Assembly: GCF_044324785.1 (NCBI RefSeq)
Contig: NZ_CP172127.1
Strand: one strand, 5' to 3'
Origin: Escherichia coli
Lineage (GTDB): Bacteria > Pseudomonadota > Gammaproteobacteria > Enterobacterales > Enterobacteriaceae
DNA: 64,000 nt
Part shown: one piece after another, positions 15,833 to 64,000 of the stretch
Layout of the letters: every line of letters begins with the position of its first letter
Position numbering within the stretch: position 1 is the first letter of the stretch
Position numbers and translations under genes: made by a program
The notes under the pieces: model-generated
Told to the model about the DNA's origin: nothing
Database searches by the model: none
Seen by the model: the letters and a program-made list of their open reading frames with translations, nothing else

Positions 15833-16952
15833 TTTTAGCTCCTTGAGCGGAATTAATCGATTTGATGACTATTCAGAAAATAATTAAGCGAACCGTTATT
15901 ACCAGTTCCACAATGTGCCATCTTCCAGTCGTGCGACGGGGAGATACGCCGGGTCATACGGATATTTCGCCGCCAGTTTCTCATCGAAAGAAATACCCAG
16001 CCCCGGTTCATCGCCTGGGTGCATATAACCTTCATCGAAGCGCCAGCTATGCGGGAAGACTTCAAGCATTTGTTCGGAATAGCCCATGTACTCCTGAACG
16101 CCAAAGTTTGGCACCCAGAGGTCAAAATGCAGCGCCGCCGCATGACAAACAGGCGATAAATCTGAAGGGCCATGCGAACCGGTACGTACCTGATAAAGCG
16201 ATGCAAAATCGGCAATCCGTCGCATCCCGGTAATGCCGCCTGCATGGGTAATCGTCGTGCGAATATAGTCAATCAGCTGCTCTTCGATTAACTGCTTGCA
16301 GTCCCAGATACTGTTAAACACTTCACCGACCGCAATCGGCGTCACAGTATGCTGGCGAATCAGACGAAAACATTCCTGGTTCTCGGCAGGCGTCGGATCT
16401 TCCATCCAGAACAGGCGGTAATCCTCAATGCTCTTCCCAAAGCGCGCCGCTTCGATAGGAGTCAGGCGATGGTGCATGTCATGCAACAGATGTTCGTTAA
16501 AACCGAACTTATTACGCACCGCTTCGAATAACTTCGGCGTAAAATCGAGATACTTTTCTGAAGACCACAACTGCTCTTCTGGCCACAGGCCTTTGGTTGC
16601 CGGTTCATACGCCAGTCCTTTGCCCTTCGCCAGGCCATAAGTGGTTTGCATACCCGGTACACCACACTGCACACGAATCGCCTTAAAGCCCATCTGCTGG
16701 TGCTTTGCATAGTCTTCAAGGACTTCATCAATCGTACGCCCGGTGGTGTGGCAATAAACCATCACGCCTTCACGAGAAGCACCACCAAGCAGTTGATACA
16801 ATGGCATATTTGCCGCTTTTGCTTTGATATCCCACAACGCCATATCAATGGCAGAAATGGCTGACATCGTGACGGGGCCACGTCGCCAGTAAGCACCGGT
16901 GATGCTGCCAACTTACTGATTTAGTGTATGATGGTGTTTTTGAGGTGCTCCA

Positions 16953-17228
16953 GTGGCTTCTGTTTCTATCAGCTGTCCCTCCTGTTCAGCTACTGACGGG
17001 GTGGTGCGTAACGGCAAAAGCACCGCCGGACATCAGCGCTATCTCTGCTCTCACTGCCGTAAAACATGGCAACTGCAGTTCACTTACACCGCTTCTCAAC
17101 CCGGTACGCACCAGAAAATCATTGATATGGCCATGAATGGCGTTGGATGCCGGGCAACTGCCCGCATTATGGGCGTTGGCCTCAACACGATTTTACGTCA
17201 CTTAAAAAACTCAGGCCGCAGTCGGTAA
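16953..17228 (+). CDS. insA: IS1 protein InsA (zinc-finger DNA-binding)
   Basis: 91 aa [43 protein letters not shown]... Confidence 0.95.
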
Positions 17229-17650
17229 CCTCGCGCATACAGCCGGGCAGTGACGTCATCGTCTGCGCGGAAATGGACGAACAGTGGGGCTATGTCGGGG
17301 CTAAATCGCGCCAGCGCTGGCTGTTTTACGCGTATGACAGTCTCCGGAAGACGGTTGTTGCGCACGTATTCGGTGAACGCACTATGGCGACGCTGGGGCG
17401 TCTTATGAGCCTGCTGTCACCCTTTGACGTGGTGATATGGATGACGGATGGCTGGCCGCTGTATGAATCCCGCCTGAAGGGAAAGCTGCACGTAATCAGC
17501 AAGCGATATACGCAGCGAATTGAGCGGCATAACCTGAATCTGAGGCAGCACCTGGCACGGCTGGGACGGAAGTCGCTGTCGTTTTCAAAATCGGTGGAGC
17601 TGCATGACAAAGTCATCGGGCATTATCTGAACATAAAACACTATCAATAA
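17147..17650 (+). CDS. insB: IS1 transposase InsB (expressed as InsAB' by -1 frameshift)
   Basis: 167 aa ...[41 protein letters not shown]... Confidence 0.93.
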
Positions 17651-18261
17651 GTTGGAGTCATTACCGTAAGCACCTTTATAAAAGAATTGCCAGATATCTT
17701 CGATACGGCTGGCATCGCGGCCAATTAATTGTGGACAAAGATGATCTTTCAGATAAGAAGCGACCGACAATTCGCGCCCATTTAACGTGGCATCTCCTAA
17801 TCCACAAAGTCCGCTTTCAGTGGTTATTTTAAGCGTAACGAAATTACGTCCTGGGCAAGTAACAAAAACATCTGCAGCAATAATTTTCATTATTGCAATC
17901 TCCTGTGTTGTAAATAGACGCTTCAAACTTAATTTTACGCCTACTACCATACAAGAGAGAAAGAGCGATTATTCAACCGTGATCACATTAAAAACAAAAA
18001 TTCCCACCGAGGAACAAGAATATCCTCAAATTTCATCCACACTATTAATTACTATTGTTAAAACAACACGTTAAATAATCACATAACAAATTCCTCTAAG
18101 GAAGAGAGTCATAACAATAACAAATGATAATCATATTTTACTTAATTCAATACGTATCGATATGTTTATTTTAAAAAGATTTTTCGGAATGAGAGATGAA
18201 AAGAAGATACACAAACAGGAAGAAATACGATTAATATTGGTCGCGGTAAGGGTAGCCGTTC

Positions 18262-54965: not shown

Positions 54966-56096
54966 ATGTCGACTCTGTTTACGATTAATGCCTGCAAGTC
55001 GTTTGGTTGCCGTAATTTAGGGCAGCCAACATCGACAGATTATAGCTGGCCCGACTATCGACTGGGTTATCCGGCACTGCACTGTCGGGCATGTGGCAGT
55101 TACCCGCCGTTGTTTGACGAGCAACAATTTCGTGACTGGTTGACAGTTCACTTATCTACTTTTGCAACAGAGAAAGGCCATTTTTGCCCGGTATGTTATG
55201 GTACAGATACGATTTGTTATGGTCACAATCCACAGGGTTCGCAACGCATTCAATGCCGTAACTGCAAAAAAGTATGGACACCCAAACAATATCAGAAAGA
55301 AATAACGACTCCCGAAATAATCGAAACGGTTGCTTTTCTCGTGCCATTTCAGGGAGTCAGCAGCGGGCAGAAACTGTATGTTTTAATCAGTTTTGATGCT
55401 CTTCGCGGTAATATTCTTCATCTTTCTACTAATTACACGCAGCATCAGGCTGGAGAAAGTCTGCATTATCGATACAGAGGGAATGCAGAACCAGAGTTAC
55501 ACGAGAGTAATATTGTACAACGCGTTGATATGCGGGAAGCACAATTTCTACGCCGCAGTCAGTTTGATGAAATTCAGTATGGCAGCGCAGCGCTCAAACG
55601 CAATGCTAAAGGTGTTATTCTGCGTCCGGTTATCACTGCACACGGGCATTTCAGAGTACTGAATATTTTATTCCCTACAGTAAAAACACATGTAATTTCA
55701 CACGAGTGTTTTTTAAGAGGTGCCATTATTACGGCATGGGCTGATCTGTTTCGCCAACAGCAAGGTGAGATTTGGTTTATTGAAGAGGAAATAGCTGACG
55801 ATACCGATAATATGCCCTGGAGTTTTCAGGGAACAACTTATCACGGCTGGTGGAAAAATCAGTGGCAACTTTGGGGTCAGGGCAAAAATCGTAAAATGGT
55901 ATGTGCATTAACGGGCGGAAAGAGTAGCAAAGCAGAAATGCTCTCTTTAGCAACCAGCAGACATTTTATCGACTGGCTACATAAACAAGCAGTATTTACT
56001 CACAGCACCCCGCTTTCCGCAGGGCGCGTTACGCAAATACTGCTTTCTCTGGCTCAGGATTACAACAACTGCGCCAGGCGGTTAATATCCGACTGA
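54966..56096 (+). CDS. hypothetical Cys-rich protein (N-terminal paired C-x4-C / C-x2-C zinc-ribbon-like motifs)
   Basis: 376 aa ORF; N-terminus contains C..x4..C, C..x2..C, C..x2..C, C..x2..C pairs (ACKSFGC, CRAC, CPVC, CRNC); no signal peptide; 3' end overlaps convergent metL stop by 37 bp; function not recognisable. Confidence 0.6.
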   Translation: MSTLFTINACKSFGCRNLGQPTSTDYSWPDYRLGYPALHCRACGSYPPLFDEQQFRDWLTVHLSTFATEKGHFCPVCYGTDTICYGHNPQGSQRIQCRNCKKVWTPKQYQKEITTPEIIETVAFLVPFQGVSSGQKLYVLISFDALRGNILHLSTNYTQHQAGESLHYRYRGNAEPELHESNIVQRVDMREAQFLRRSQFDEIQYGSAALKRNAKGVILRPVITAHGHFRVLNILFPTVKTHVISHECFLRGAIITAWADLFRQQQGEIWFIEEEIADDTDNMPWSFQGTTYHGWWKNQWQLWGQGKNRKMVCALTGGKSSKAEMLSLATSRHFIDWLHKQAVFTHSTPLSAGRVTQILLSLAQDYNNCARRLISD

Positions 56097-58492
56097 ATCG
56101 CCCCTGCGGTGACGTCGCGCCCCGCGCCAGGCCCACGGATCACCAGAGGGTTATCGCGATACCAGCGGCTTTCGATGGCAAAGACGTTATCGCACGGCAG
56201 CAGTGATGCCAGCGGATGGTCTTCACGCACCGCTTCCACGCCCACACGCGCTTTGCCATTGGCATCGAAACGCGCCACGTAGCGCAGCACCAGCCCCATT
56301 TCGCGGGCCGCTTCCAGCCGTTGCAACATCTGCTCGTTGAGTTCATCGCCGTTTTCAAAGAAATGGTCGATGCTACCGCCTTCGCAATGGGCAGGCACCA
56401 GCGATTCCACGCGCACCTGATCTGGTTCGATGTCGTAACCCGCTTCACGCGCCAGAATCACCAGCTTGCGCATCACGTCTTTGCCGGAAAGGTCATCACG
56501 CGGGTCAGGCTCGGTTAAGCCCTGCTGCCACGCCTGATCCACCAGTTCGGTAAACGGCACGCTACCGTCGAATTGCAGGAACAGCCAGGAGAGCGTGCCG
56601 GAGAAGATCCCGCTGATCGACAAAATAGTATCGCCGCTGTCGATCAGATCGCGCACGGTATGGTTGATCGGCAATCCCGCACCGACGGTGGCGTTGTACA
56701 GCCAGTGACGCCCGGTTTTTTCGAAGGCGTCGTGGATCTGGCGATATTTATTGCTGTCGCTCGCTCCTGCCAGTTTGTTGGCACTGATGACGTGGAAACC
56801 GTGGCTGGCGAAATCAAGATACTGGTCAGCGAGCTGCTGGCTGGCGGTAACGTCCAGCACCACTAAATCATCATACGGATGGGCGCGCATCCACAGGAAC
56901 AGCGACTCTTCATCCTGCTCGACCGCTTCATCGTTGAAGAAGGCTAGCGCGCGGCTGGCATCCAGCCCGCCATAACTCAACAGGCTGCGGCGGCTGTCCA
57001 CCACGCCTGCCAGCACAAATTCAAAGCCGGTACGTGCCGAAAGCGTGCTCTGCTCACGGGCGAACAGTTCCAGCCAGCGGGAACCGATATTGCCCTTGCC
57101 GAACAATACCAGGCCGATGCGTTTTTCTGCGCGGAAGACGGACTGATGCAGCCCCTGAATCAGGCTTTCGGTTGGTCCGGTGCGCAGTACTGCCACCAGG
57201 CTGATGCCGTCATCGGACTGCCAGGTAAATTCGACCGGCTGGCCTTTCAGTTGCTGCCAGAAGCGGTGGCAATGCAGCGGGTTACGGGTGACGCCTGCAC
57301 CGACCATCGCCACCAGCGCCAGCCCCTGACGCAGGCGCAGTTCGCCAGGTAATCCCGCTTCGTCGAGGATTTTCAGCGCACTGTCAGCGACTTCTGAGGT
57401 GTAGCAAAATTGCAGCAACTGGCGATCGTTATGCACGCCAACCGCCAGTGGACGCACCTGGGCACGTTTCAGGATCTGGTCGATCTCTTTATGTGCCAGT
57501 TTGAAATCCTGACTGGCGGGCACCTGAAACTCAATCAAACAGACATCATCGTGGCTGGTGACAATACGCGCACCAGTACCAGAGGCCAGCACGCGTTCAA
57601 TGCGCGTGGAGCCTTGATCCGGCGTGTAGCTACAGCGCAGTTGCAGGTCGATTTCGCTACCGGATACCGGCTGTAAAGTACGGGCGTGAAGAACGGGAGC
57701 CGCCAGACGCGCCAGTTCGCTGGCCTCATCCAGACGCAGCAACGGCAGCAGGCAGGCATCTTTCACTTTACGCGGGTCGGCACTGTATACCCCGGCGACG
57801 TCGCTCCAGATGGTTACACGAGAAACACCCGCCAGCGCACCGATTTGTGTCGCGGAATAGTCGGAACCGTTACGCCCCAGCAGCACCGTTTCACCGGCGT
57901 TGTTACGGCTGATAAACCCGGTCACCACCAGACGTTTGCCCGGATGTTGTACCAGTAGCTGTTGCAGCAACGGGTAAGAAAGTCCTTCATCAACCTGCGG
58001 TTGCGCAGCGCGTTCAGCGCGTAAAAACTCGCGGGCATCAAGCCAGGCCGCTGGCAGCCCTTGTTGATTAAGTACCGCAGACATCAGGCGTGCCGACCAT
58101 ACTTCCCCGTGGCCCACCACTTCCGCATACACCGCATCGTTAATACCACTGTCGAGCAACGCCGCCAGGCGCTCAAGATCGCTGACAAAAGCGCTAATGA
58201 GGCTATCGGCTTCTTCGGCGGGTAACAGGCCGCTAATCAGATCGCACTGATAGCGACGCAGCGTTTGTTGAACCTGATGCGCAGAGAGACGATCGGTCTG
58301 GCTTAGTTTCAACCAGTTAATCAACTGGTTAGTGGTGCTACCGGCGGCGGAAACCACCATCATATCGTCAGGCAGAGAGTACTCCGCCATAATGCCCGCG
58401 ACACGCAAATAACACTTCACATCAGCCAGACTACTGCCACCAAATTTATGCAGTTGACGACCTTTCGCCCCTGCCTGCGCAATCACACTCAT
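56060..58492 (-). CDS. metL: bifunctional aspartokinase II / homoserine dehydrogenase II MetL
   Basis: 810 aa; MSVIAQAGAKGRQLHKFGGSSLADVKCYLRVAGIMAEYS... Confidence 0.95.
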   Translation of the reverse strand: MSVIAQAGAKGRQLHKFGGSSLADVKCYLRVAGIMAEYSLPDDMMVVSAAGSTTNQLINWLKLSQTDRLSAHQVQQTLRRYQCDLISGLLPAEEADSLISAFVSDLERLAALLDSGINDAVYAEVVGHGEVWSARLMSAVLNQQGLPAAWLDAREFLRAERAAQPQVDEGLSYPLLQQLLVQHPGKRLVVTGFISRNNAGETVLLGRNGSDYSATQIGALAGVSRVTIWSDVAGVYSADPRKVKDACLLPLLRLDEASELARLAAPVLHARTLQPVSGSEIDLQLRCSYTPDQGSTRIERVLASGTGARIVTSHDDVCLIEFQVPASQDFKLAHKEIDQILKRAQVRPLAVGVHNDRQLLQFCYTSEVADSALKILDEAGLPGELRLRQGLALVAMVGAGVTRNPLHCHRFWQQLKGQPVEFTWQSDDGISLVAVLRTGPTESLIQGLHQSVFRAEKRIGLVLFGKGNIGSRWLELFAREQSTLSARTGFEFVLAGVVDSRRSLLSYGGLDASRALAFFNDEAVEQDEESLFLWMRAHPYDDLVVLDVTASQQLADQYLDFASHGFHVISANKLAGASDSNKYRQIHDAFEKTGRHWLYNATVGAGLPINHTVRDLIDSGDTILSISGIFSGTLSWLFLQFDGSVPFTELVDQAWQQGLTEPDPRDDLSGKDVMRKLVILAREAGYDIEPDQVRVESLVPAHCEGGSIDHFFENGDELNEQMLQRLEAAREMGLVLRYVARFDANGKARVGVEAVREDHPLASLLPCDNVFAIESRWYRDNPLVIRGPGAGRDVTAGAIQSDINRLAQLL

Positions 58493-58494
58493 TT

Positions 58495-59655
58495 TTACCC
58501 CTTGTTTGCAGCCCGGAAGCCATTTTCCAGGTCGGCAATTAAATCTTCGCCATCTTCAATACCGGTGGAGATACGCAGCAGCGTCTCGGAGATCCCGGCG
58601 GCAGCACGCGCTTCTGGTGCCATGCCTGCATGTGTCATGGTTGCGGCGTGAGAGATTAAACTTTCCACTCCCCCTAATGATTCCGCCAGCGTAAACAACG
58701 ACAGCCCGCCCAAGAAACGACGCAGCGTCTGCTCATCGCCATCCAGTTCAAAACTCAACATTGCGCCAAAGCCTTTTTGCTGGCGCGCGGCAATTTCATG
58801 CCCCTGATTTTCCGGCAGCGACGGGTGATACAGTTTTTTCACCAACGGCTGGGTTTGCAGATATTTCACAATCGCCTGCGCGTTGCGCTGGGCCAGCTCC
58901 ATACGCGGCACCAGAGTTCGCAACCCGCGTAGCAGCAGATAGCTGTCAAACGCGCCGCCCGTCACGCCAATATTGTTTGCCCACCAGGCAAGTTCAGTGA
59001 CAACGTCCGGATCTTTAGCAATCACCACGCCGGCCACCACGTCTGAGTGACCGTTCAGATATTTCGTGCATGAATGCAACACCAGATCGGCACCTAATGC
59101 CAGCGGATTTTGTAATGCCGGGCTTAAGAAGGTGTTATCCACCACGCTCACCGCCCCGACTTCCCTTGCCAGATGGCAGATTTTCGCAATATCCACGACG
59201 CGTAACAATGGATTACTTGGGCTTTCTACCAGTACCAGTTTGGGGTTTTCTGCCAGCGCTGCCCGTAATGCCTGTTCATCGCCTTGATCAACAAACAACA
59301 CGCGATAGCAACCGCGTTTCGCCAGGCTGTCGAACAGGCGATAGCTGCCTCCGTAGCAGTCGTGCGGCGCAACCAGCAGATCGCCTGGTTTCAAAAAGAC
59401 GGTCGTTACCAGGTGAATCGCGGACATGCCGGTATTAGTAAGTACGGCACCAGCACCGCCTTCCAGTTCTGCCAGCGCACGCTGAACCACATCGCGCGTT
59501 GGGTTGCCGCGCCGCGAGTAATCATGCGCGCGCGGTTCATTAAATCCGGTAAAGTTATAGGTGCTGGAAAGATGGATGGGAGGGACAACGCAACCATACT
59601 GTTCGTCGTCATTTAACCCGCTACGCACTGCGATGGTGGCCTGTTTACGCGTCAT
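58495..59655 (-). CDS. metB: cystathionine gamma-synthase MetB
   Basis: Translation from MTRKQATIAVRSGLNDDEQYGCVVPPIHLSSTYNF...; PLP-dependent; the ORF-track 445-aa version is an upstream in-frame extension without stop. Confidence 0.94.
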   Translation of the reverse strand: MTRKQATIAVRSGLNDDEQYGCVVPPIHLSSTYNFTGFNEPRAHDYSRRGNPTRDVVQRALAELEGGAGAVLTNTGMSAIHLVTTVFLKPGDLLVAPHDCYGGSYRLFDSLAKRGCYRVLFVDQGDEQALRAALAENPKLVLVESPSNPLLRVVDIAKICHLAREVGAVSVVDNTFLSPALQNPLALGADLVLHSCTKYLNGHSDVVAGVVIAKDPDVVTELAWWANNIGVTGGAFDSYLLLRGLRTLVPRMELAQRNAQAIVKYLQTQPLVKKLYHPSLPENQGHEIAARQQKGFGAMLSFELDGDEQTLRRFLGGLSLFTLAESLGGVESLISHAATMTHAGMAPEARAAAGISETLLRISTGIEDGEDLIADLENGFRAANKG

Positions 59656-59714
59656 GTGATGAAGTTCCCTGGGCTTTGTCGGTGAAATGTCAGGCACCAG
59701 AGTAAACATTGTGT

Positions 59715-59750
59715 TAATGGACGTCAATACATCTGGACATCTAAACTTCT
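59715..59750. promoter_or_regulatory. MetJ operator (tandem met boxes) in metB / metJ divergent control region
   Basis: Reverse complement reads tagatgtc cagatgta ttgacgtc, three tandem 8-bp met-box-like repeats upstream of metB. Confidence 0.65.
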
Positions 59751-59931
59751 TTGCGTATAGATTGAGCAAATCCCAAATAGCCGTTAAAATTATATGCATT
59801 ATCACGCCGACAGGTGCATTACACGATGTCACGGTAGCGCCTGTACGGTAAACTATGCGGGTTTACGGTCAGTACCCACATAAATTGTGTGGTCTGGTCT
59901 CAATTTATTGACGAAGAGGATTAAGTATCTC

Positions 59932-60249
59932 ATGGCTGAATGGAGCGGCGAATATATCAGCCCATACGCTGAGCACGGCAAGAAGAGTGAACAAGTCAAA
60001 AAGATTACGGTTTCCATTCCTCTTAAGGTGTTAAAAATCCTCACCGATGAACGCACGCGTCGTCAGGTGAACAACCTGCGTCACGCTACCAACAGCGAGC
60101 TGCTGTGCGAAGCGTTTCTGCATGCCTTTACCGGGCAACCTTTGCCGGATGATGCCGATCTGCGTAAAGAGCGCAGCGACGAAATCCCGGAAGCGGCAAA
60201 AGAGATCATGCGTGAGATGGGGATTAACCCGGAGACGTGGGAATACTAA
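59932..60249 (+). CDS. metJ: methionine repressor MetJ
   Basis: Translation [66 protein letters not shown]...; 105 aa. Confidence 0.95.
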
Positions 60250-60257
60250 AGCGGAAA

Positions 60258-60290
60258 AGAGCGGCGCGGAGTTAACCAGCCGCTTTTTTC
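60258..60290 (+). terminator. rho-independent terminator downstream of metJ
   Basis: Hairpin agcggcgcggagttaaccagccgct followed by tttttc. Confidence 0.55.
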
Positions 60291-60308
60291 ATACATGGAC
60301 GTTTAACG

Positions 60309-60917
60309 ATGAAAATCAGGCTACTGATCCTCAGCCTGCTGGTTTCTGTGCCTGCATTTGCCTGGCAACCACAAACCGGCGACATCATCTTTCAGATCTC
60401 TCGCTCATCGCAAAGTAAAGCGATCCAACTGGCGACCCATTCCGATTACAGCCACACCGGTATGCTGGTGATACGCAACAAAAAGCCCTACGTTTTTGAA
60501 GCGGTCGGCCCGGTGAAATACACCCCGCTCAAGCAGTGGATTGCCCATGGTGAAAAGGGCAAATACGTTGTTCGCCGCGTTGAAGGCGGACTGAGTGTTA
60601 AACAACAGCAAAAACTGGCGCAAACGGCAAAACGTTATCTCGGCAAACCGTATGATTTCAGCTTCTCATGGAGCGACGATCGCCAGTACTGTTCGGAAGT
60701 GGTGTGGAAGGTTTACCAGAATGCGCTGGGAATGCGCGTGGGCGAACAGCAAAAGTTGAAAGAGTTCGATCTGAGTAACCCGCTGGTTCAGGCAAAGCTC
60801 AAAGAACGTTACGGCAAGAATATTCCGCTTGAGGAAACGGTGGTCTCGCCACAAGCCGTTTTCGACGCGCCACAACTCACCACGGTTGCCAAAGAGTGGC
60901 CGCTGTTTTCGTGGTAA
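60309..60917 (+). CDS. yiiX: conserved secreted protein YiiX (permuted papain-like/DUF830 family)
   Basis: 202 aa with signal peptide MKIRLLILSLLVSVPAFA; conserved position next to metJ. Confidence 0.88.
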   Translation: MKIRLLILSLLVSVPAFAWQPQTGDIIFQISRSSQSKAIQLATHSDYSHTGMLVIRNKKPYVFEAVGPVKYTPLKQWIAHGEKGKYVVRRVEGGLSVKQQQKLAQTAKRYLGKPYDFSFSWSDDRQYCSEVVWKVYQNALGMRVGEQQKLKEFDLSNPLVQAKLKERYGKNIPLEETVVSPQAVFDAPQLTTVAKEWPLFSW

Positions 60918-61003
60918 TGGATGATAAAAAAATAATTCCCGCCGTAGTCTGTTTGTTGCTTTGTAGTTGCACGACCTTTCCGCAAGCTGTCGCTCCGGTA
61001 AAC

Positions 61004-61766
61004 GGTGATGCCTCCAATTAGTTGAATTAAGGATATAATACTCGCTTCTAAGGTTGTTTCATGGTCACAGTTAACCTTCATTGTCCCCGTTGCCAGTCCG
61101 TTTAGGTTTACCGTCACGGGCAGAACCCCAAAAGACATGATCGATTCCGCGGCCGTGACTGTCACCGGGTATTTCAGCTCAGTTACTGTTACGAGCCCCG
61201 TAAACCGGGAGTTAAAGACCAAATCGCTGAAATGGCTTTCAACGGTGCCGGGGTTCGCTATACTGCCCGTACGCTGAAAATCGGCATTAATACAGTCATC
61301 CGAACTTTAAAAAACTCTCGCCACGAAGAATAACGTCATCCCCGGTCGCTCATGCTGATGTGGCACTCAACTGCGAACTTAGTCAGCAATGGAGCTTTGT
61401 CGGCAGTAAAGCGCGACAGCACTGGCTCTGGTACGTGTACAACACGAAAACTGGTGGTGTTCTGGCCTACACTTTTGGCCCCCGGACTGATGAAACCTGT
61501 CGTGAATTGCTGGCGCTGCTTACCCTTTTACCATCGGCATGTTGACCACTGACGAATGGGGTAGTTACACCAGAGAGTTACCAAAGGAGAAGCATCTGAC
61601 TGGTAAGATTTTTACTCAGCACATTGAGCGTAACAATCTGACCCTGAGAACCCGAATCAAACGTCTGGCCCGCAGAACCATCTATTTCTCGCGTTCTGTA
61701 GAACTTCATGAAAAAGTCATCGGTGCTTTTATCGAAAATATATGTTCTACTGATTGGAGTCATCAC
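61004..61766 (+). mobile_element. degenerate IS1-family element (frameshifted insA and insB, no target duplication)
   Basis: IS1-like terminal repeats ggtgatgcctccaattagttgaatt (left) and ...ctactgattggagtcatcac (right); InsA-like reading MVTVNLHCPRCQSV*, then in another frame ...AEMAFNGAGVRYTARTLKIGINTVIRTLKNS; InsB-like segments ...QQWSFVGSKARQHWLWYVYNTKTGGVLAYTFGPRTDETC... and ...TDEWGSYTRELPKEKHLTGKIFTQHIERNNLTLRTRIKRLARRTIYFSRSVELHEKVIG in different frames. Confidence 0.8.
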
Positions 61767-61866
61767 TCTTCTGATGAGCTTTCCTTGGATGATTACCAGA
61801 CTGAATACACAGCCAAAGATTTTTACCTCATTCTGCTCTTTTTTCTCAAATGACATATATTATATT

Positions 61867-62145
61867 TTACATCATATTCATAGGCATATGACATTCCCCC
61901 GCCCCCATTATGTCATTGTGGGTTGATGTTGGGCTTTCATAAAAAAATACATCTTTTTTTGAACTAGCATTAATTATATTTACTTTATACATTAAAATAT
62001 TTTCTCCATCTGGAAATATTTTAGCCACACAATATAAAGCAGCTAAATCCGAATTACTTAAAAATATATTGTCATCACTCATAACTCCAGCCATTAAATG
62101 ACTGGAGACTAAAGCAAGGAAATAACAACATTGTATTGCCTTCAT
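61867..62145 (-). CDS. small secreted protein, candidate immunity protein for the adjacent Rhs C-terminal toxin
   Basis: ATG for MKAIQCCYFLALVSSHLMAG... preceded by a GGGAG RBS; hydrophobic N-terminus; AT-rich; starts 60 bp downstream of the Rhs fragment stop on the same strand. Confidence 0.6.
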   Translation of the reverse strand: MKAIQCCYFLALVSSHLMAGVMSDDNIFLSNSDLAALYCVAKIFPDGENILMYKVNIINASSKKDVFFYESPTSTHNDIMGAGECHMPMNMM

Positions 62146-62205
62146 TTTAATTACTCCCTTGCCTGATAATTGTAACTCCATTCCCTTTAGCTTTGGGATT
62201 ATATT

Positions 62206-63564
62206 TTAGATAGGTGTTATTTGGTGTTCCCAAGTAACTACTGTATTCTTTTTTTCCATTCCATTCATATAAGAATTCGTTAAATCTTTGCTTGAAAAAT
62301 TTAGACTATCATAAACATCATTTTCTTTTGTTACTTTATTTCCTTTATCGTCAGAGTAAAAACCGTGAGTGTGATAATCGCCTACTCTCTCTGAACCTTC
62401 AGGGCGTTTTATATTTCGCAAGTCTACACTATCATTATCATTTGAACTTATCGGATTCATGGGGGAATATTCACCTTGCTTCTTACATATTAGTCCACCA
62501 TATTCTTTATTCTCGTTAATTGATTCTCCATTACACATTGCCAATGCAAATATTCCAATATCATCTATATTTTTTGATTTAAATTCATATAATCCTAATG
62601 GATCCATGCCATTCACCGGGCTCAGCGGATATGTATACAGGTTCCATCCCCCCTTCAGCCCAATCGGATCCTGAGTGATATACCGCCCCTGCAGCGGGTC
62701 ATAATAGCGGTGGCGGTTGTAATACAGGCCGGACTCCTCATCATACTGCTGCCCCGGCAGGCGGATGAGCTGCTGCAGTTGATGCGGGTTCTCTTCATTC
62801 AGCAGATTGCCCCACTCATCGTATTCTGCGCACCATTCTGTTGCCCCTTCCGTGCTGACAAGCGCCAGCGGCAGGCCGCGATGGTCGCAGTGGTACAGGT
62901 GGATTTTTCGCGCCGGCGTGTACACCGGGTCCATCTGGTTTTGCATCTGCTCCACCGTCAGGCCGCACGATGCCAGCCAGCGGCGGCTTTCCTCACTCAC
63001 CCGGTCAGCCAGGATTTCACTTTCCAGCCGGTCGAGCATCTGCACCAGCACCGGCGGGAACACCACACTGCCACCGTCTTCACCGCCGGACTGCTGAAGC
63101 GCATCCGCCAGGCTGCGGCGCTGCGTTTTCGCCAGCTCACCGGTGGCGGTTTCGACCCTGATGAGTGGCGTGAAGCTCCCCGGCTGATAAACCGTCTGGA
63201 TGCGGGTTCTGTCGTTCTGTATCGTGGTCAGCCGGTCGCCGTCCCAGCCGTACCAGGTCACTTCCGGTTTCCGTGACAGCGACATCCAGCCCGTCAGGTC
63301 CCGTTCACGCCGCCACACCCGTTTTGCCACCCTGCGGCCCAGCGGGTCGTAAAGATAGCGACTTTCGACCAGCGGCTCTGCATATTGTGTCCGCGTGTAG
63401 TGCACCAGCCGGTGCTGACTGTCGTAATGGTACCGGTGAGTCCGCTCATCATCCGTGCGGATAACCCCTTCCGGGATGAGGTCGGTTTTCTCTGTCAGCC
63501 TGCCGTGACGGTCATACCGGTAAAGATAGTGCGCGTCACGGGCGATACGGTTATCCGGCCACAT
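62206..63564 (-). CDS. orphan Rhs-family C-terminal fragment: conserved Rhs core end (to DPLGL) fused to a 127-aa variable C-terminal toxin domain
   Basis: Translation ...[14 protein letters not shown]...[15 protein letters not shown]...[17 protein letters not shown]...[45 protein letters not shown] then the AT-rich divergent tail [14 protein letters not shown]...[12 protein letters not shown]...; Rhs-like reading frame extends upstream to about 63650 without an obvious start, and the long N-terminal Rhs body is absent. Confidence 0.82.
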
Positions 63565-63678
63565 GCTGAGGGTGCTGTCCGGGTGCAGCTCCGGGTCGGG
63601 CAGGCGGTTGCCTGCCGGGTCCGTGGCATACGGGATATCAATGCCCAGGTTACATATAATAAGAGCAATTAACTTAAT

Positions 63679-63936
63679 TTATTTGTTTATAATGCGCTTA
63701 CTTAATACAAACCATTGAATATACCCTCCTGACAGAAAATAAAGCCATGTTATTATCGCCATAATATACTTACTATCAATCCTTACGCCAATAATGTCTG
63801 AAACAGTCCCTATAAATATTAGAGCAATAAAGAATACTATGCCTGTTGGAAAACATATTACCATCATTCCATAAGACATGAGACTAATTAACTCGCTCAC
63901 ATCACGAGTGGAGTCTAATAGTGAAAGTCTATGCAT
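63679..63936 (-). CDS. small hydrophobic protein (two predicted TM helices), possible immunity protein of an upstream toxin module
   Basis: 85-aa ORF MHRLSLLDSTRDVSELISLMSYGMMVICFPTGIVFFIALIFIGTVSDIIGV...; AT-rich; directly upstream of the Rhs fragment on the same strand; close to window edge. Confidence 0.4.
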   Translation of the reverse strand: MHRLSLLDSTRDVSELISLMSYGMMVICFPTGIVFFIALIFIGTVSDIIGVRIDSKYIMAIITWLYFLSGGYIQWFVLSKRIINK

Positions 63937-64000
63937 GGAAAAGAATAGTATTAAAAGCGATAAAGCCAGCCATGTAGCTCTGAATAAAAAAATAATACAT

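What the first reader, a model, noticed from the sequence alone, without database searches (positions are those of the whole stretch)
61004..61766. Degenerate second IS1-family copy with multiple frameshifts marks the yiiX-proximal boundary of a toxin locus
Unlike the intact IS1 at 16899-17665, this element has diverged inverted repeats, a stop in insA after 14 codons, a frameshift in insB and no target duplication. It is an old, inactive relic, and it separates the conserved yiiX gene from the Rhs fragment, so it may mark a past rearrangement endpoint.
Basis: seen in the sequence. Interest (0 to 1): 0.35.

Follow-up and report, generated by a model that had tools for sequence, protein, structure and literature searches.

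The report
Dead IS1H copy beside Rhs island
This is a dead copy of a known jumping gene (insertion sequence IS1H) that sits at the same spot next to an Rhs toxin island in about 40% of complete E. coli genomes; it is an ordinary relic that annotation pipelines already label, and its left end marks where a neighbouring gene was cut off.

Summary
Window 61004-61767 is a 764-bp IS1-family element, one base longer than reported. It has imperfect 23-bp terminal repeats, insA and insB in 0/-1 frames, and the A6C slippery motif.

Its repaired protein is about 40% identical to canonical IS1 InsAB'. Orthologues 98-99% identical are labelled by NCBI's PGAP as 'IS1-like element IS1H family transposase', frameshifted.

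Intact 766-bp relatives (about 94% identical) lie on an E. marmotae and a Salmonella plasmid. Against them this copy carries:
- a TAG at insA codon 15;
- a lost zinc-finger Cys;
- DE->SQ in the conserved DEQW motif;
- two 1-bp deletions in insB;
- a mutated terminal base.

A single -1 slip therefore does not yield a transposase. Both deletions are in all eight sampled orthologues. The TAG is confined to this window and strain N3.

The yiiX-side junction occurs in 2174 of 5426 complete E. coli genomes, one copy each. There is no target duplication. Comparison with BL21 shows that a DUF2459/TIGR02117 gene downstream of yiiX is cut exactly at the IS left end, and its remaining 550 bp are replaced by IS1H plus the Rhs element.

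The feature is ordinary and already known.

The parts
60917..61003 (+). Remnant of a TIGR02117/DUF2459 gene with a signal-peptide-like N-terminus (MDDKKIIPAVVCLLLCSCTTFPQAVAPVN). Its ATG overlaps the yiiX stop codon. It is cut off exactly at the IS left end.
   Evidence: It is 97% identical to the 5' end of the BL21 gene for WP_000720774.1, and homology ends at 61003. The full protein matches Pfam DUF2459 at E=5e-46. The segment is absent from K-12.
61004..61767 (+). IS1H-type IS1-family insertion sequence, a 764-bp non-functional relic.
   Evidence: PGAP labels orthologues 'IS1-like element IS1H family transposase', frameshifted.
61004..61026 (+). Left terminal inverted repeat, GGTGATGCCTCCAATTAGTTGAA.
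   Evidence: It differs at 1 of 23 positions from the left repeat of intact relatives.
61061..61333 (+). insA pseudogene of 91 codons. It has a TAG nonsense codon at 61103-61105 and the zinc-finger Cys31 replaced by Gly (GGC, 61151-61153).
   Evidence: The TAG is found only in this window and strain N3. The Cys->Gly change is in all yiiX-locus copies.
61309..61315 (+). A6C (AAAAAAC) programmed -1 frameshift motif, intact.
   Evidence: The role of the motif is described in PMC12428005.
61315..61753 (+). insB' reading frame (-1 relative to insA), now broken. Lesions: AGT CAG at 61381-61386 replaces GAT GAG (DEQW -> SQQW); 1-bp deletion in the C-run 61523-61525, giving a premature TGA at 61543-61545; 1-bp deletion in the A-run 61735-61738. 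The original stop is at 61751-61753.
   Evidence: Alignment to intact elements L004 and L005, translations and the protein alignment.
61745..61767 (-). Right terminal inverted repeat (reverse complement AGTGATGACTCCAATCAGTAGAA). The terminal base is mutated C->T in this lineage.
61867..62181 (-). dsORF-f3, the small ORF downstream of the Rhs tip. It is the presumed immunity gene and is always linked to the right end of the relic.
   Evidence: PGAP label 'RHS element protein dsORF-f3' in orthologous loci. The right junction is present in 2163 genomes. It has no Pfam hit.
62206..63636 (-). 5'-truncated Rhs C-terminal fragment. The ORF is 62206-63564 and carries the RHS core end plus a DUF4329 tip. 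Homology to full-length Rhs cores ends at 63636.
   Evidence: Pfam PF03527 and PF14220. Colinearity with L001 and L013.

Best explanation
The element is a dead, vertically inherited copy of IS1H, a divergent member of the IS1 family. It lies at the yiiX end of the Rhs island that occupies the yiiX-rpmE interval in many E. coli.

When it was alive it worked like IS1. InsA (zinc finger plus helix-turn-helix) bound the 23-bp terminal repeats. A rare -1 ribosomal slip at AAAAAAC fused insA to insB to make the DDE transposase InsAB'.

This copy can no longer make either protein. The ancestor of all copies at this locus had already acquired two 1-bp deletions in insB, loss of a zinc-finger cysteine, and loss of the conserved Asp-Glu of the DEQW motif. 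The lineage of this window later added a TAG at insA codon 15 and mutated the terminal base of the right repeat.

The element has no target-site duplication. Its left end abuts codon 27 of a DUF2459/TIGR02117 gene whose remainder is missing, so one of its flanks is not the original one.

The most likely history is inferred, not shown. While still active, the IS caused a one-ended adjacent deletion by intramolecular transposition between the DUF2459 gene and the DNA downstream of the Rhs immunity ORF. Recombination with a second copy is the alternative. This fused yiiX, a 29-codon remnant, the IS and the Rhs element. Since then it has been inert DNA carried along with the island.
For: IS1-family identity:
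- Pfam and NCBIfam hits on the repaired protein.
- Anatomy and the A6C motif.
- The alignment to canonical IS1 is homologous along its whole length.
- The repaired protein is 40% identical to canonical IS1 InsAB'; the intact relatives are 43% identical.

IS1H label:
- PGAP annotation of orthologues 98-99% identical.

Inactivation:
- Intact relatives L004 and L005 give a 231-aa InsAB' with one -1 slip. L005 has an 8-bp duplication, TGGTAAGT.
- The window copy gives premature stops under the same operation.
- The lesions are mapped.

Age and orthology:
- The left junction is in 2174 genomes and the right junction in 2163, out of 5426.
- Records whose best copy is at least 95% identical number 2175. 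That matches the junction count, so there is one copy per genome, always at this site.
- The lesions are shared across 8 diverse strains, with pairwise divergence up to 2.1%.

Breakpoint:
- BL21 and IZSBS22 have the intact gene between yiiX and rpmE.
- Homology ends exactly at the left repeat and resumes only at the rpmE terminator.
- There is no duplication.

Literature:
- Missing duplications are usually attributed to adjacent deletions or to recombination between IS copies (PMC11708052).
- IS1 anatomy and frameshift control are described in PMC12428005.
Against: - The deletion mechanism is inferred. No intermediate genome (intact DUF2459 gene plus Rhs island) appeared among the 45 spread-sampled rows. 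It therefore cannot be decided which flank is original, nor whether recombination between two copies was the cause instead.
- The relic copies are somewhat less diverged from each other (mean 1.1%) than the flanking metB-yiiX DNA (2.1%). That is unexpected for neutral DNA of the same age. With 764 bp and 8 sequences it is within sampling noise, or it reflects later spread of the island by recombination.
- The ISfinder reference for IS1H could not be consulted. The isoform name rests on PGAP labels.
- Assigning the lost Asp to the catalytic DDE triad rests on my memory of Ohta et al. 2002, not on a test here.
Confidence: 0.9

Rival explanations
1. The element is still mobile. It might encode a working transposase through recoding, or it might be moved in trans by the transposase of an intact IS1H-like or canonical IS1 element, because its ends are nearly intact.
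For: - The left repeat differs at only 1 of 23 positions from that of intact relatives, and the A6C motif is intact.
- An intact canonical IS1 is present in the same window at 16898-17665.
- Intact IS1H-like elements exist on Escherichia and Salmonella plasmids.
Against: - Self-encoded activity would need readthrough of a TAG and two extra frameshifts. It would also have to tolerate a lost zinc-finger Cys and a lost conserved Asp.
- All 2175 records with a copy at least 95% identical correspond to the 2174 genomes with the yiiX junction. The variant has never been caught elsewhere.
- Its left repeat matches the canonical IS1 left repeat at only 16 of 23 positions, and the proteins are about 40% identical. 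Cross-mobilisation by canonical IS1 is therefore unlikely.
- The terminal base of the right repeat is mutated here.
- No intact IS1H-like copy appeared among the 25 best full-length hits to the intact element in complete E. coli genomes.
Confidence: 0.03
2. It is a simple insertion into the DUF2459 gene or into intergenic DNA, and its target duplication has decayed by point mutation. No rearrangement is involved.
For: - The element is old enough to have accumulated about 6% divergence from intact relatives.
Against: - The 9 bp on each side share no resemblance (CCGGTAAAC against CTTCTGATG).
- The flanks evolve slowly. The left junction is identical in all 8 sampled loci.
- The DNA to the right of the IS has no similarity to the rest of the DUF2459 gene in a sensitive blastn (word size 7). 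The two flanks were therefore not contiguous before insertion.
Confidence: 0.03
3. The relic has been retained for a host function. It might supply an InsA-like repressor, a terminator or insulator between the convergent yiiX and Rhs immunity transcripts, or a recombination target for swapping Rhs tips.
For: - It is retained at one site in about 40% of genomes.
- The insA ORF is still open in most lineages.
- Mean divergence is lower than in the flanks.
Against: - The zinc-finger Cys needed for repeat binding is lost in all copies, and insA carries a nonsense codon here and in N3.
- Among the 8 copies, variable sites are as dense in insA (9 of 276) as in insB (11 of 417); I counted these.
- Some strains tolerate an IS1F insertion inside it.
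- There is no Rfam hit and no excess of promoter- or terminator-like sites.
- Retention is explained by linkage to the Rhs island.
Confidence: 0.04

Closest known systems
IS1H (the ISfinder isoform name used by NCBI PGAP: 'IS1-like element IS1H family transposase')
   Same: Orthologous copies at the same yiiX/dsORF-f3 site, 98.4-99.1% identical to this one, carry exactly this label. IS1H is routinely listed among the mobile elements of E. coli isolates (PMC10383658) and was counted once in E. coli W (PMC3032704).
   Different: This lineage has extra private lesions: the TAG at codon 15, the terminal C->T change and three other substitutions. PGAP therefore downgrades it and strain N3 to generic 'IS1 family transposase; frameshifted; internal stop'. 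The ISfinder reference itself could not be aligned here. Note that 'IS1H' in K-12 literature such as EcoGene is a different thing: a canonical IS1 copy named by position.
Canonical IS1 (IS1A/IS1E type; the intact copy in this window at 16898-17665)
   Same: It has the same architecture: about 766-768 bp, 23-bp imperfect repeats beginning GGT, a 91-codon insA, an A6C slip site at the same position (306-307), insB in the -1 frame, and 8-9-bp duplications in intact members (PMC12428005).
   Different: The intact IS1H-like relatives have only about 43% InsAB' identity to it, and the repaired window copy has 40%. The nucleotide sequences are strongly diverged. The left repeats match at 16 of 23 positions. 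The canonical copy is intact with a 9-bp duplication, whereas this one is dead and has none.
Intact IS1H-like elements on E. marmotae pEM148 (WP_103194758.1) and Salmonella pSA20083530.1 (WP_114047604.1)
   Same: They are about 94% identical in nucleotides over the full length, with the same repeats, insA start and slip site.
   Different: They are 766 bp. They encode an uninterrupted 231-aa InsAB' after one -1 slip, and the pEM148 copy has an 8-bp duplication. Thirty fixed differences separate them from the yiiX-locus clade.
The Rhs element at the yiiX-priA locus (rhs locus 11 of Jackson et al. 2009; its 'dsORF-f3' label points to Hill's RhsF)
   Same: The relic is the yiiX-side terminal component of this island in every genome sampled. 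Jackson et al. list an rhs locus between yiiX and priA (PMC2935791).
   Different: In this window the Rhs core is 5'-truncated at 63636 and followed by a ybfB-like ORF, as in an ST38 genome. Other strains have a full 4.2-kb core.

Membership tests
IS1 family of insertion sequences | Length of about 0.77 kb, bounded by imperfect terminal inverted repeats of about 23 bp beginning GGT | tested here: met
   The element is 764 bp. The left repeat is 61004-61026 and the right repeat 61745-61767, matching at 19 of 23 positions. Canonical IS1 in the same window matches at 18 of 23.
IS1 family of insertion sequences | insA followed by insB in the -1 frame, joined by an AAAAAAC slippery motif near the end of insA | tested here: met
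   The A6C motif is at 61309-61315, at the same element position (306) as in intact relatives and one base from canonical IS1 (307). insB homology lies in the -1 frame.
IS1 family of insertion sequences | Protein domains: InsA zinc ribbon, InsA helix-turn-helix and the IS1 DDE transposase domain | tested here: met
   On the conceptually repaired translation, PF03811 scores E=2e-17, PF12759 scores 1e-25 and PF03400 scores 1e-66. NCBIfam NF033558 scores 242 bits against a cut-off of 100.
IS1 family of insertion sequences | Direct target duplication of 8-9 bp flanking a simple insertion | tested here: not met
   The flanks are CCGGTAAAC and CTTCTGATG. The feature is met by the canonical IS1 at 16898-17665 (GTAAGCACC) and by the intact relative L005 (TGGTAAGT). 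Its absence bears on the history of this copy, not on family membership.
Functional (autonomous) IS1-type element | A single -1 frameshift yields full-length InsA and InsAB' | tested here: not met
   There is a TAG at codon 15. After the slip, the frame ends prematurely at 61543-61545. A second 1-bp deletion lies at 61735-61738.
Functional (autonomous) IS1-type element | Conserved zinc-finger cysteines and conserved acidic residues of the transposase | tested here: not met
   Cys31 is replaced by Gly, and DEQW is replaced by SQQW, at positions invariant between canonical IS1 and the intact IS1H-like proteins. That the Asp belongs to the DDE triad is from memory and was not tested.
Functional (autonomous) IS1-type element | Demonstrated transposition | not testable with these tools
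   Indirect evidence only: the variant is found at a single site in 2174 genomes and nowhere else.
IS1H isoform | Near-identity to the ISfinder IS1H reference sequence | tested here: inconclusive
Indirectly, PGAP names orthologues 98-99% identical 'IS1-like element IS1H family transposase'.
Rhs element at the yiiX-priA locus | An Rhs core or tip with a downstream small ORF, located between yiiX and rpmE/priA | tested here: met
   PF03527 RHS and a DUF4329 tip occur in ORF 62206-63564. Orthologous loci carry the dsORF-f3 label. The locus is listed in PMC2935791.

The most novel reading that the evidence does not exclude
The relic's left end may record the event that destroyed the second gene of a two-gene yiiX-DUF2459 unit, in which the stop and start codons overlap as TAATG.

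Only 289 of 5426 complete E. coli genomes keep that gene. About 40% lost it through the IS1H/Rhs replacement. Most of the rest appear to have lost it through a separate K-12-type deletion that starts at the same base after the yiiX stop codon.

If these really are two independent losses, they would suggest selection against the DUF2459 signal-peptide-bearing (possibly lipoprotein) product. Alternatively they would indicate a recombination-prone hotspot at this site. In that case the IS relic would be a dated marker of one of the two events.
Probability: 0.15. Interest if true: 0.25.

Novelty: already known. Interest (0 to 1): 0.1.

Why it matters
It matters little beyond annotation hygiene.

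The element should be annotated as a non-functional IS1H pseudogene spanning 61004-61767. It should not be counted as a potentially active IS1.

Because it is fixed at one site with shared lesions, it is a convenient haplotype marker for the yiiX-rpmE Rhs island. It also explains why the 5' stub of a DUF2459/TIGR02117 gene sits after yiiX.

Genome surveys that report 'IS1H' as a mobile element in E. coli isolates are, at this locus, reporting this immobile relic.

Tried and rejected
1. I first misread the frames and thought insA itself was frameshifted. Recomputing showed the ATG is at 61061, not 61062, and insA is one frame with a single nonsense codon.

2. I considered that the stub ORF left of the IS might continue in frame across the IS into 61767-61853. 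I rejected this once the true right end proved to be 61767 and the BL21 gene showed no similarity to the right flank.

3. I scanned one genome per GTDB species for the left junction, to see whether other Escherichia species share the insertion. The only hit was a 2.2-kb contig of a 'Lachnospiraceae' metagenome-assembled genome (MAG) that is plainly E. coli DNA. There is thus no evidence for the junction outside E. coli, but the sample is one genome per species.

4. I tried to read the original Rhs papers of the Hill laboratory by PubMed and PMC id. They are not held. Searches for RhsF with IS1 and for iso-IS1 with Rhs gave nothing relevant.

5. I looked for an intermediate haplotype with an intact DUF2459 gene plus the Rhs island. 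None appeared among the sampled rows.

6. Rfam and promoter/terminator scans of the region gave nothing above background.

7. I looked for intact IS1H-like copies in complete E. coli genomes. The best full-length hits are another 763-bp element next to a transketolase pseudogene, which is a pseudogene in the one copy I inspected.

Full report
**What is there.** Window 61004-61767 is an IS1-family insertion sequence.
- Its two ends are 23-bp imperfect inverted repeats: GGTGATGCCTCCAATTAGTTGAA on the left, and AGTGATGACTCCAATCAGTAGAA for the reverse complement of the right end.
- A 91-codon insA starts at 61061.
- The AAAAAAC slip motif lies at 61309-61315, and insB homology follows in the -1 frame.
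- Conceptually repaired, the protein hits Pfam Zn_ribbon_InsA (2e-17), HTH_Tnp_IS1 (1e-25) and DDE_Tnp_IS1 (1e-66). It hits the NCBIfam IS1 equivalog at 242 bits against a cut-off of 100.
- The repaired protein is only 40% identical to InsAB' of the canonical IS1 in the same window. That copy lies at 16898-17665, is intact, and has a 9-bp duplication, GTAAGCACC.

**Which IS1.** A megablast against 5426 complete E. coli genomes finds full-length copies in about 2400 of them.
- The copies 98-99% identical to this one are annotated by PGAP as 'IS1-like element IS1H family transposase', flagged frameshifted.
- The nearest genome, strain N3 (99.9%), is annotated 'IS1 family transposase; frameshifted; internal stop'.
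- IS1H is a named isoform that appears routinely in E. coli mobile-element inventories (PMC10383658; PMC3032704).
- I could not consult ISfinder itself, so the name rests on PGAP labels.

**How dead it is.** Two intact relatives about 94% identical were found, on Salmonella plasmid pSA20083530.1 and E. marmotae plasmid pEM148.
- They are 766 bp and annotated with real protein accessions.
- A single -1 slip gives them an uninterrupted 231-aa InsAB'. The pEM148 copy has an 8-bp target duplication.

Against them, the window copy has six lesions:
- CAG->TAG at insA codon 15 (61103-61105);
- Cys31->Gly in the zinc finger (61151-61153);
- GAT GAG -> AGT CAG in the conserved DEQW motif (61381-61386);
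- loss of one C at 61523-61525, giving a premature TGA at 61543-61545;
- loss of one A at 61735-61738;
- the terminal base of the right repeat changed C->T (61767).

One -1 slip does not give an intact product.

**How old it is.** Eight copies from this locus were aligned: this window, N3, Res13, 50579417, O157:H7 SS17, O111:H8, an ST38 strain and EC200461.
- All share both deletions, the Cys->Gly change and the DE->SQ change.
- The TAG and the terminal C->T change are restricted to this window and N3.
- Pairwise divergence among the copies averages 1.1% and reaches 2.1%. The adjacent metB-yiiX DNA averages 2.1%.
- The yiiX-side junction is present in 2174 genomes and the dsORF-f3-side junction in 2163.
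- Records whose best copy is at least 95% identical number 2175. This variant therefore occurs once per genome and only here.
- A scan of one genome per GTDB species for the left junction found only a mis-binned E. coli contig.
- Some strains carry an IS1F inserted inside the relic.

**The breakpoint.** K-12 has yiiX and rpmE about 60 bp apart, with no island.
- BL21, IZSBS22 and 287 other genomes have a 207-aa TIGR02117/DUF2459 gene between them. Its start overlaps the yiiX stop codon.
- In this window the first 27 codons of that gene survive at 60917-61003.
- Homology stops exactly at the IS left end. The remaining 550 bp are absent.
- In the colinear N3 locus, homology resumes only at the rpmE terminator, beyond the Rhs core.
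- The flanks share no duplication.

One flank of the IS is therefore secondary. The usual causes are an IS-mediated adjacent deletion or recombination between two IS copies (PMC11708052). I favour a one-ended deletion made while the element was still active. This step is inferred, and no intermediate haplotype was seen.

**Surroundings.** To the right lie three features:
- dsORF-f3 at 61867-62181 on the minus strand;
- a 5'-truncated Rhs C-terminal fragment at 62206-63564, carrying the RHS core end and a DUF4329 tip;
- a ybfB-like ORF at 63679-63936.

The window is colinear with an ST38 genome up to 63997, where an ISAs1 (H-rpt) element follows. Jackson et al. list an rhs locus between yiiX and priA (PMC2935791).

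**Function.** There is no sign of co-option.
- There is no Rfam match and no excess of promoter- or terminator-like sites.
- Variable sites among the eight copies are equally dense in insA and insB; I counted these.
- insA carries a nonsense mutation in this lineage.

**Verdict.** The interpretation (old, inactive, marks a rearrangement endpoint) is supported. The element is a known isoform that standard annotation already flags as a pseudogene in thousands of genomes. It is ordinary and of low interest.

Noticed in passing
window 60917-61003; compare L009 9065-9688: This is the stub of a TIGR02117/DUF2459 gene whose ATG overlaps the yiiX stop codon (TAATG). The full 207-aa gene survives between yiiX and rpmE in only 289 of 5426 complete E. 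coli genomes, BL21 among them. K-12 has lost it entirely by a deletion starting at the same base after the yiiX stop, leaving 12 bp (TACGACCAAAAT) of unknown origin.
   Followed up: partly
window 16898-17665: This canonical IS1 is intact: 768 bp, open insA and insB, and an A6C motif. It is flanked by a perfect 9-bp target duplication, GTAAGCACC, so it is a simple and probably recent insertion.
   Followed up: partly
window 63636-64000: Homology to full-length Rhs cores (N3, O157:H7 and others) stops at 63636. Beyond it lies a ybfB-like ORF (63679-63936, minus strand), as in an ST38 genome where an ISAs1/H-rpt transposase pseudogene follows. The Rhs here is therefore an orphan C-terminal fragment with a DUF4329 tip.
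   Followed up: partly
L015 4176-4941 (E. coli P24_WM1_05.20; also H80, H81, H176-H178): In some strains an IS1F element has inserted inside the IS1H relic, at the position corresponding to window ~61669-61678. About 10 bp of relic sequence is duplicated on both sides.
   Followed up: no
L016 (SFGN01000258.1): A 2240-bp contig binned as 'MAG: Lachnospiraceae bacterium W0P5.016' is 98% identical to window 60504-62740 (yiiX, the IS1H relic and dsORF-f3). It is E. coli DNA mis-binned into that MAG.
   Followed up: yes
L006 1501-2262 (E. coli RM10410) and hits H186-H210: A second, independent IS1H-like element of 762-763 bp sits next to a truncated transketolase-family gene in many avian and extraintestinal E. 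coli. It is 97.4% identical to the intact pEM148 element. In RM10410, the one copy inspected, it is a pseudogene (frameshifted, internal stop). Shorter fragments of the same isoform occur on pO157-type plasmids (query positions 1-555) and in B2 strains such as CFT073 and Nissle (112 bp).
   Followed up: no
window 55004-63636 against L001 and L013: The window haplotype looks mosaic. The relic and the Rhs-tip side are 0.1% from strain N3. The metB-yiiX side is 0.83% from N3 and equally close to the ST38 strain, which suggests recombination near yiiX.
   Followed up: no
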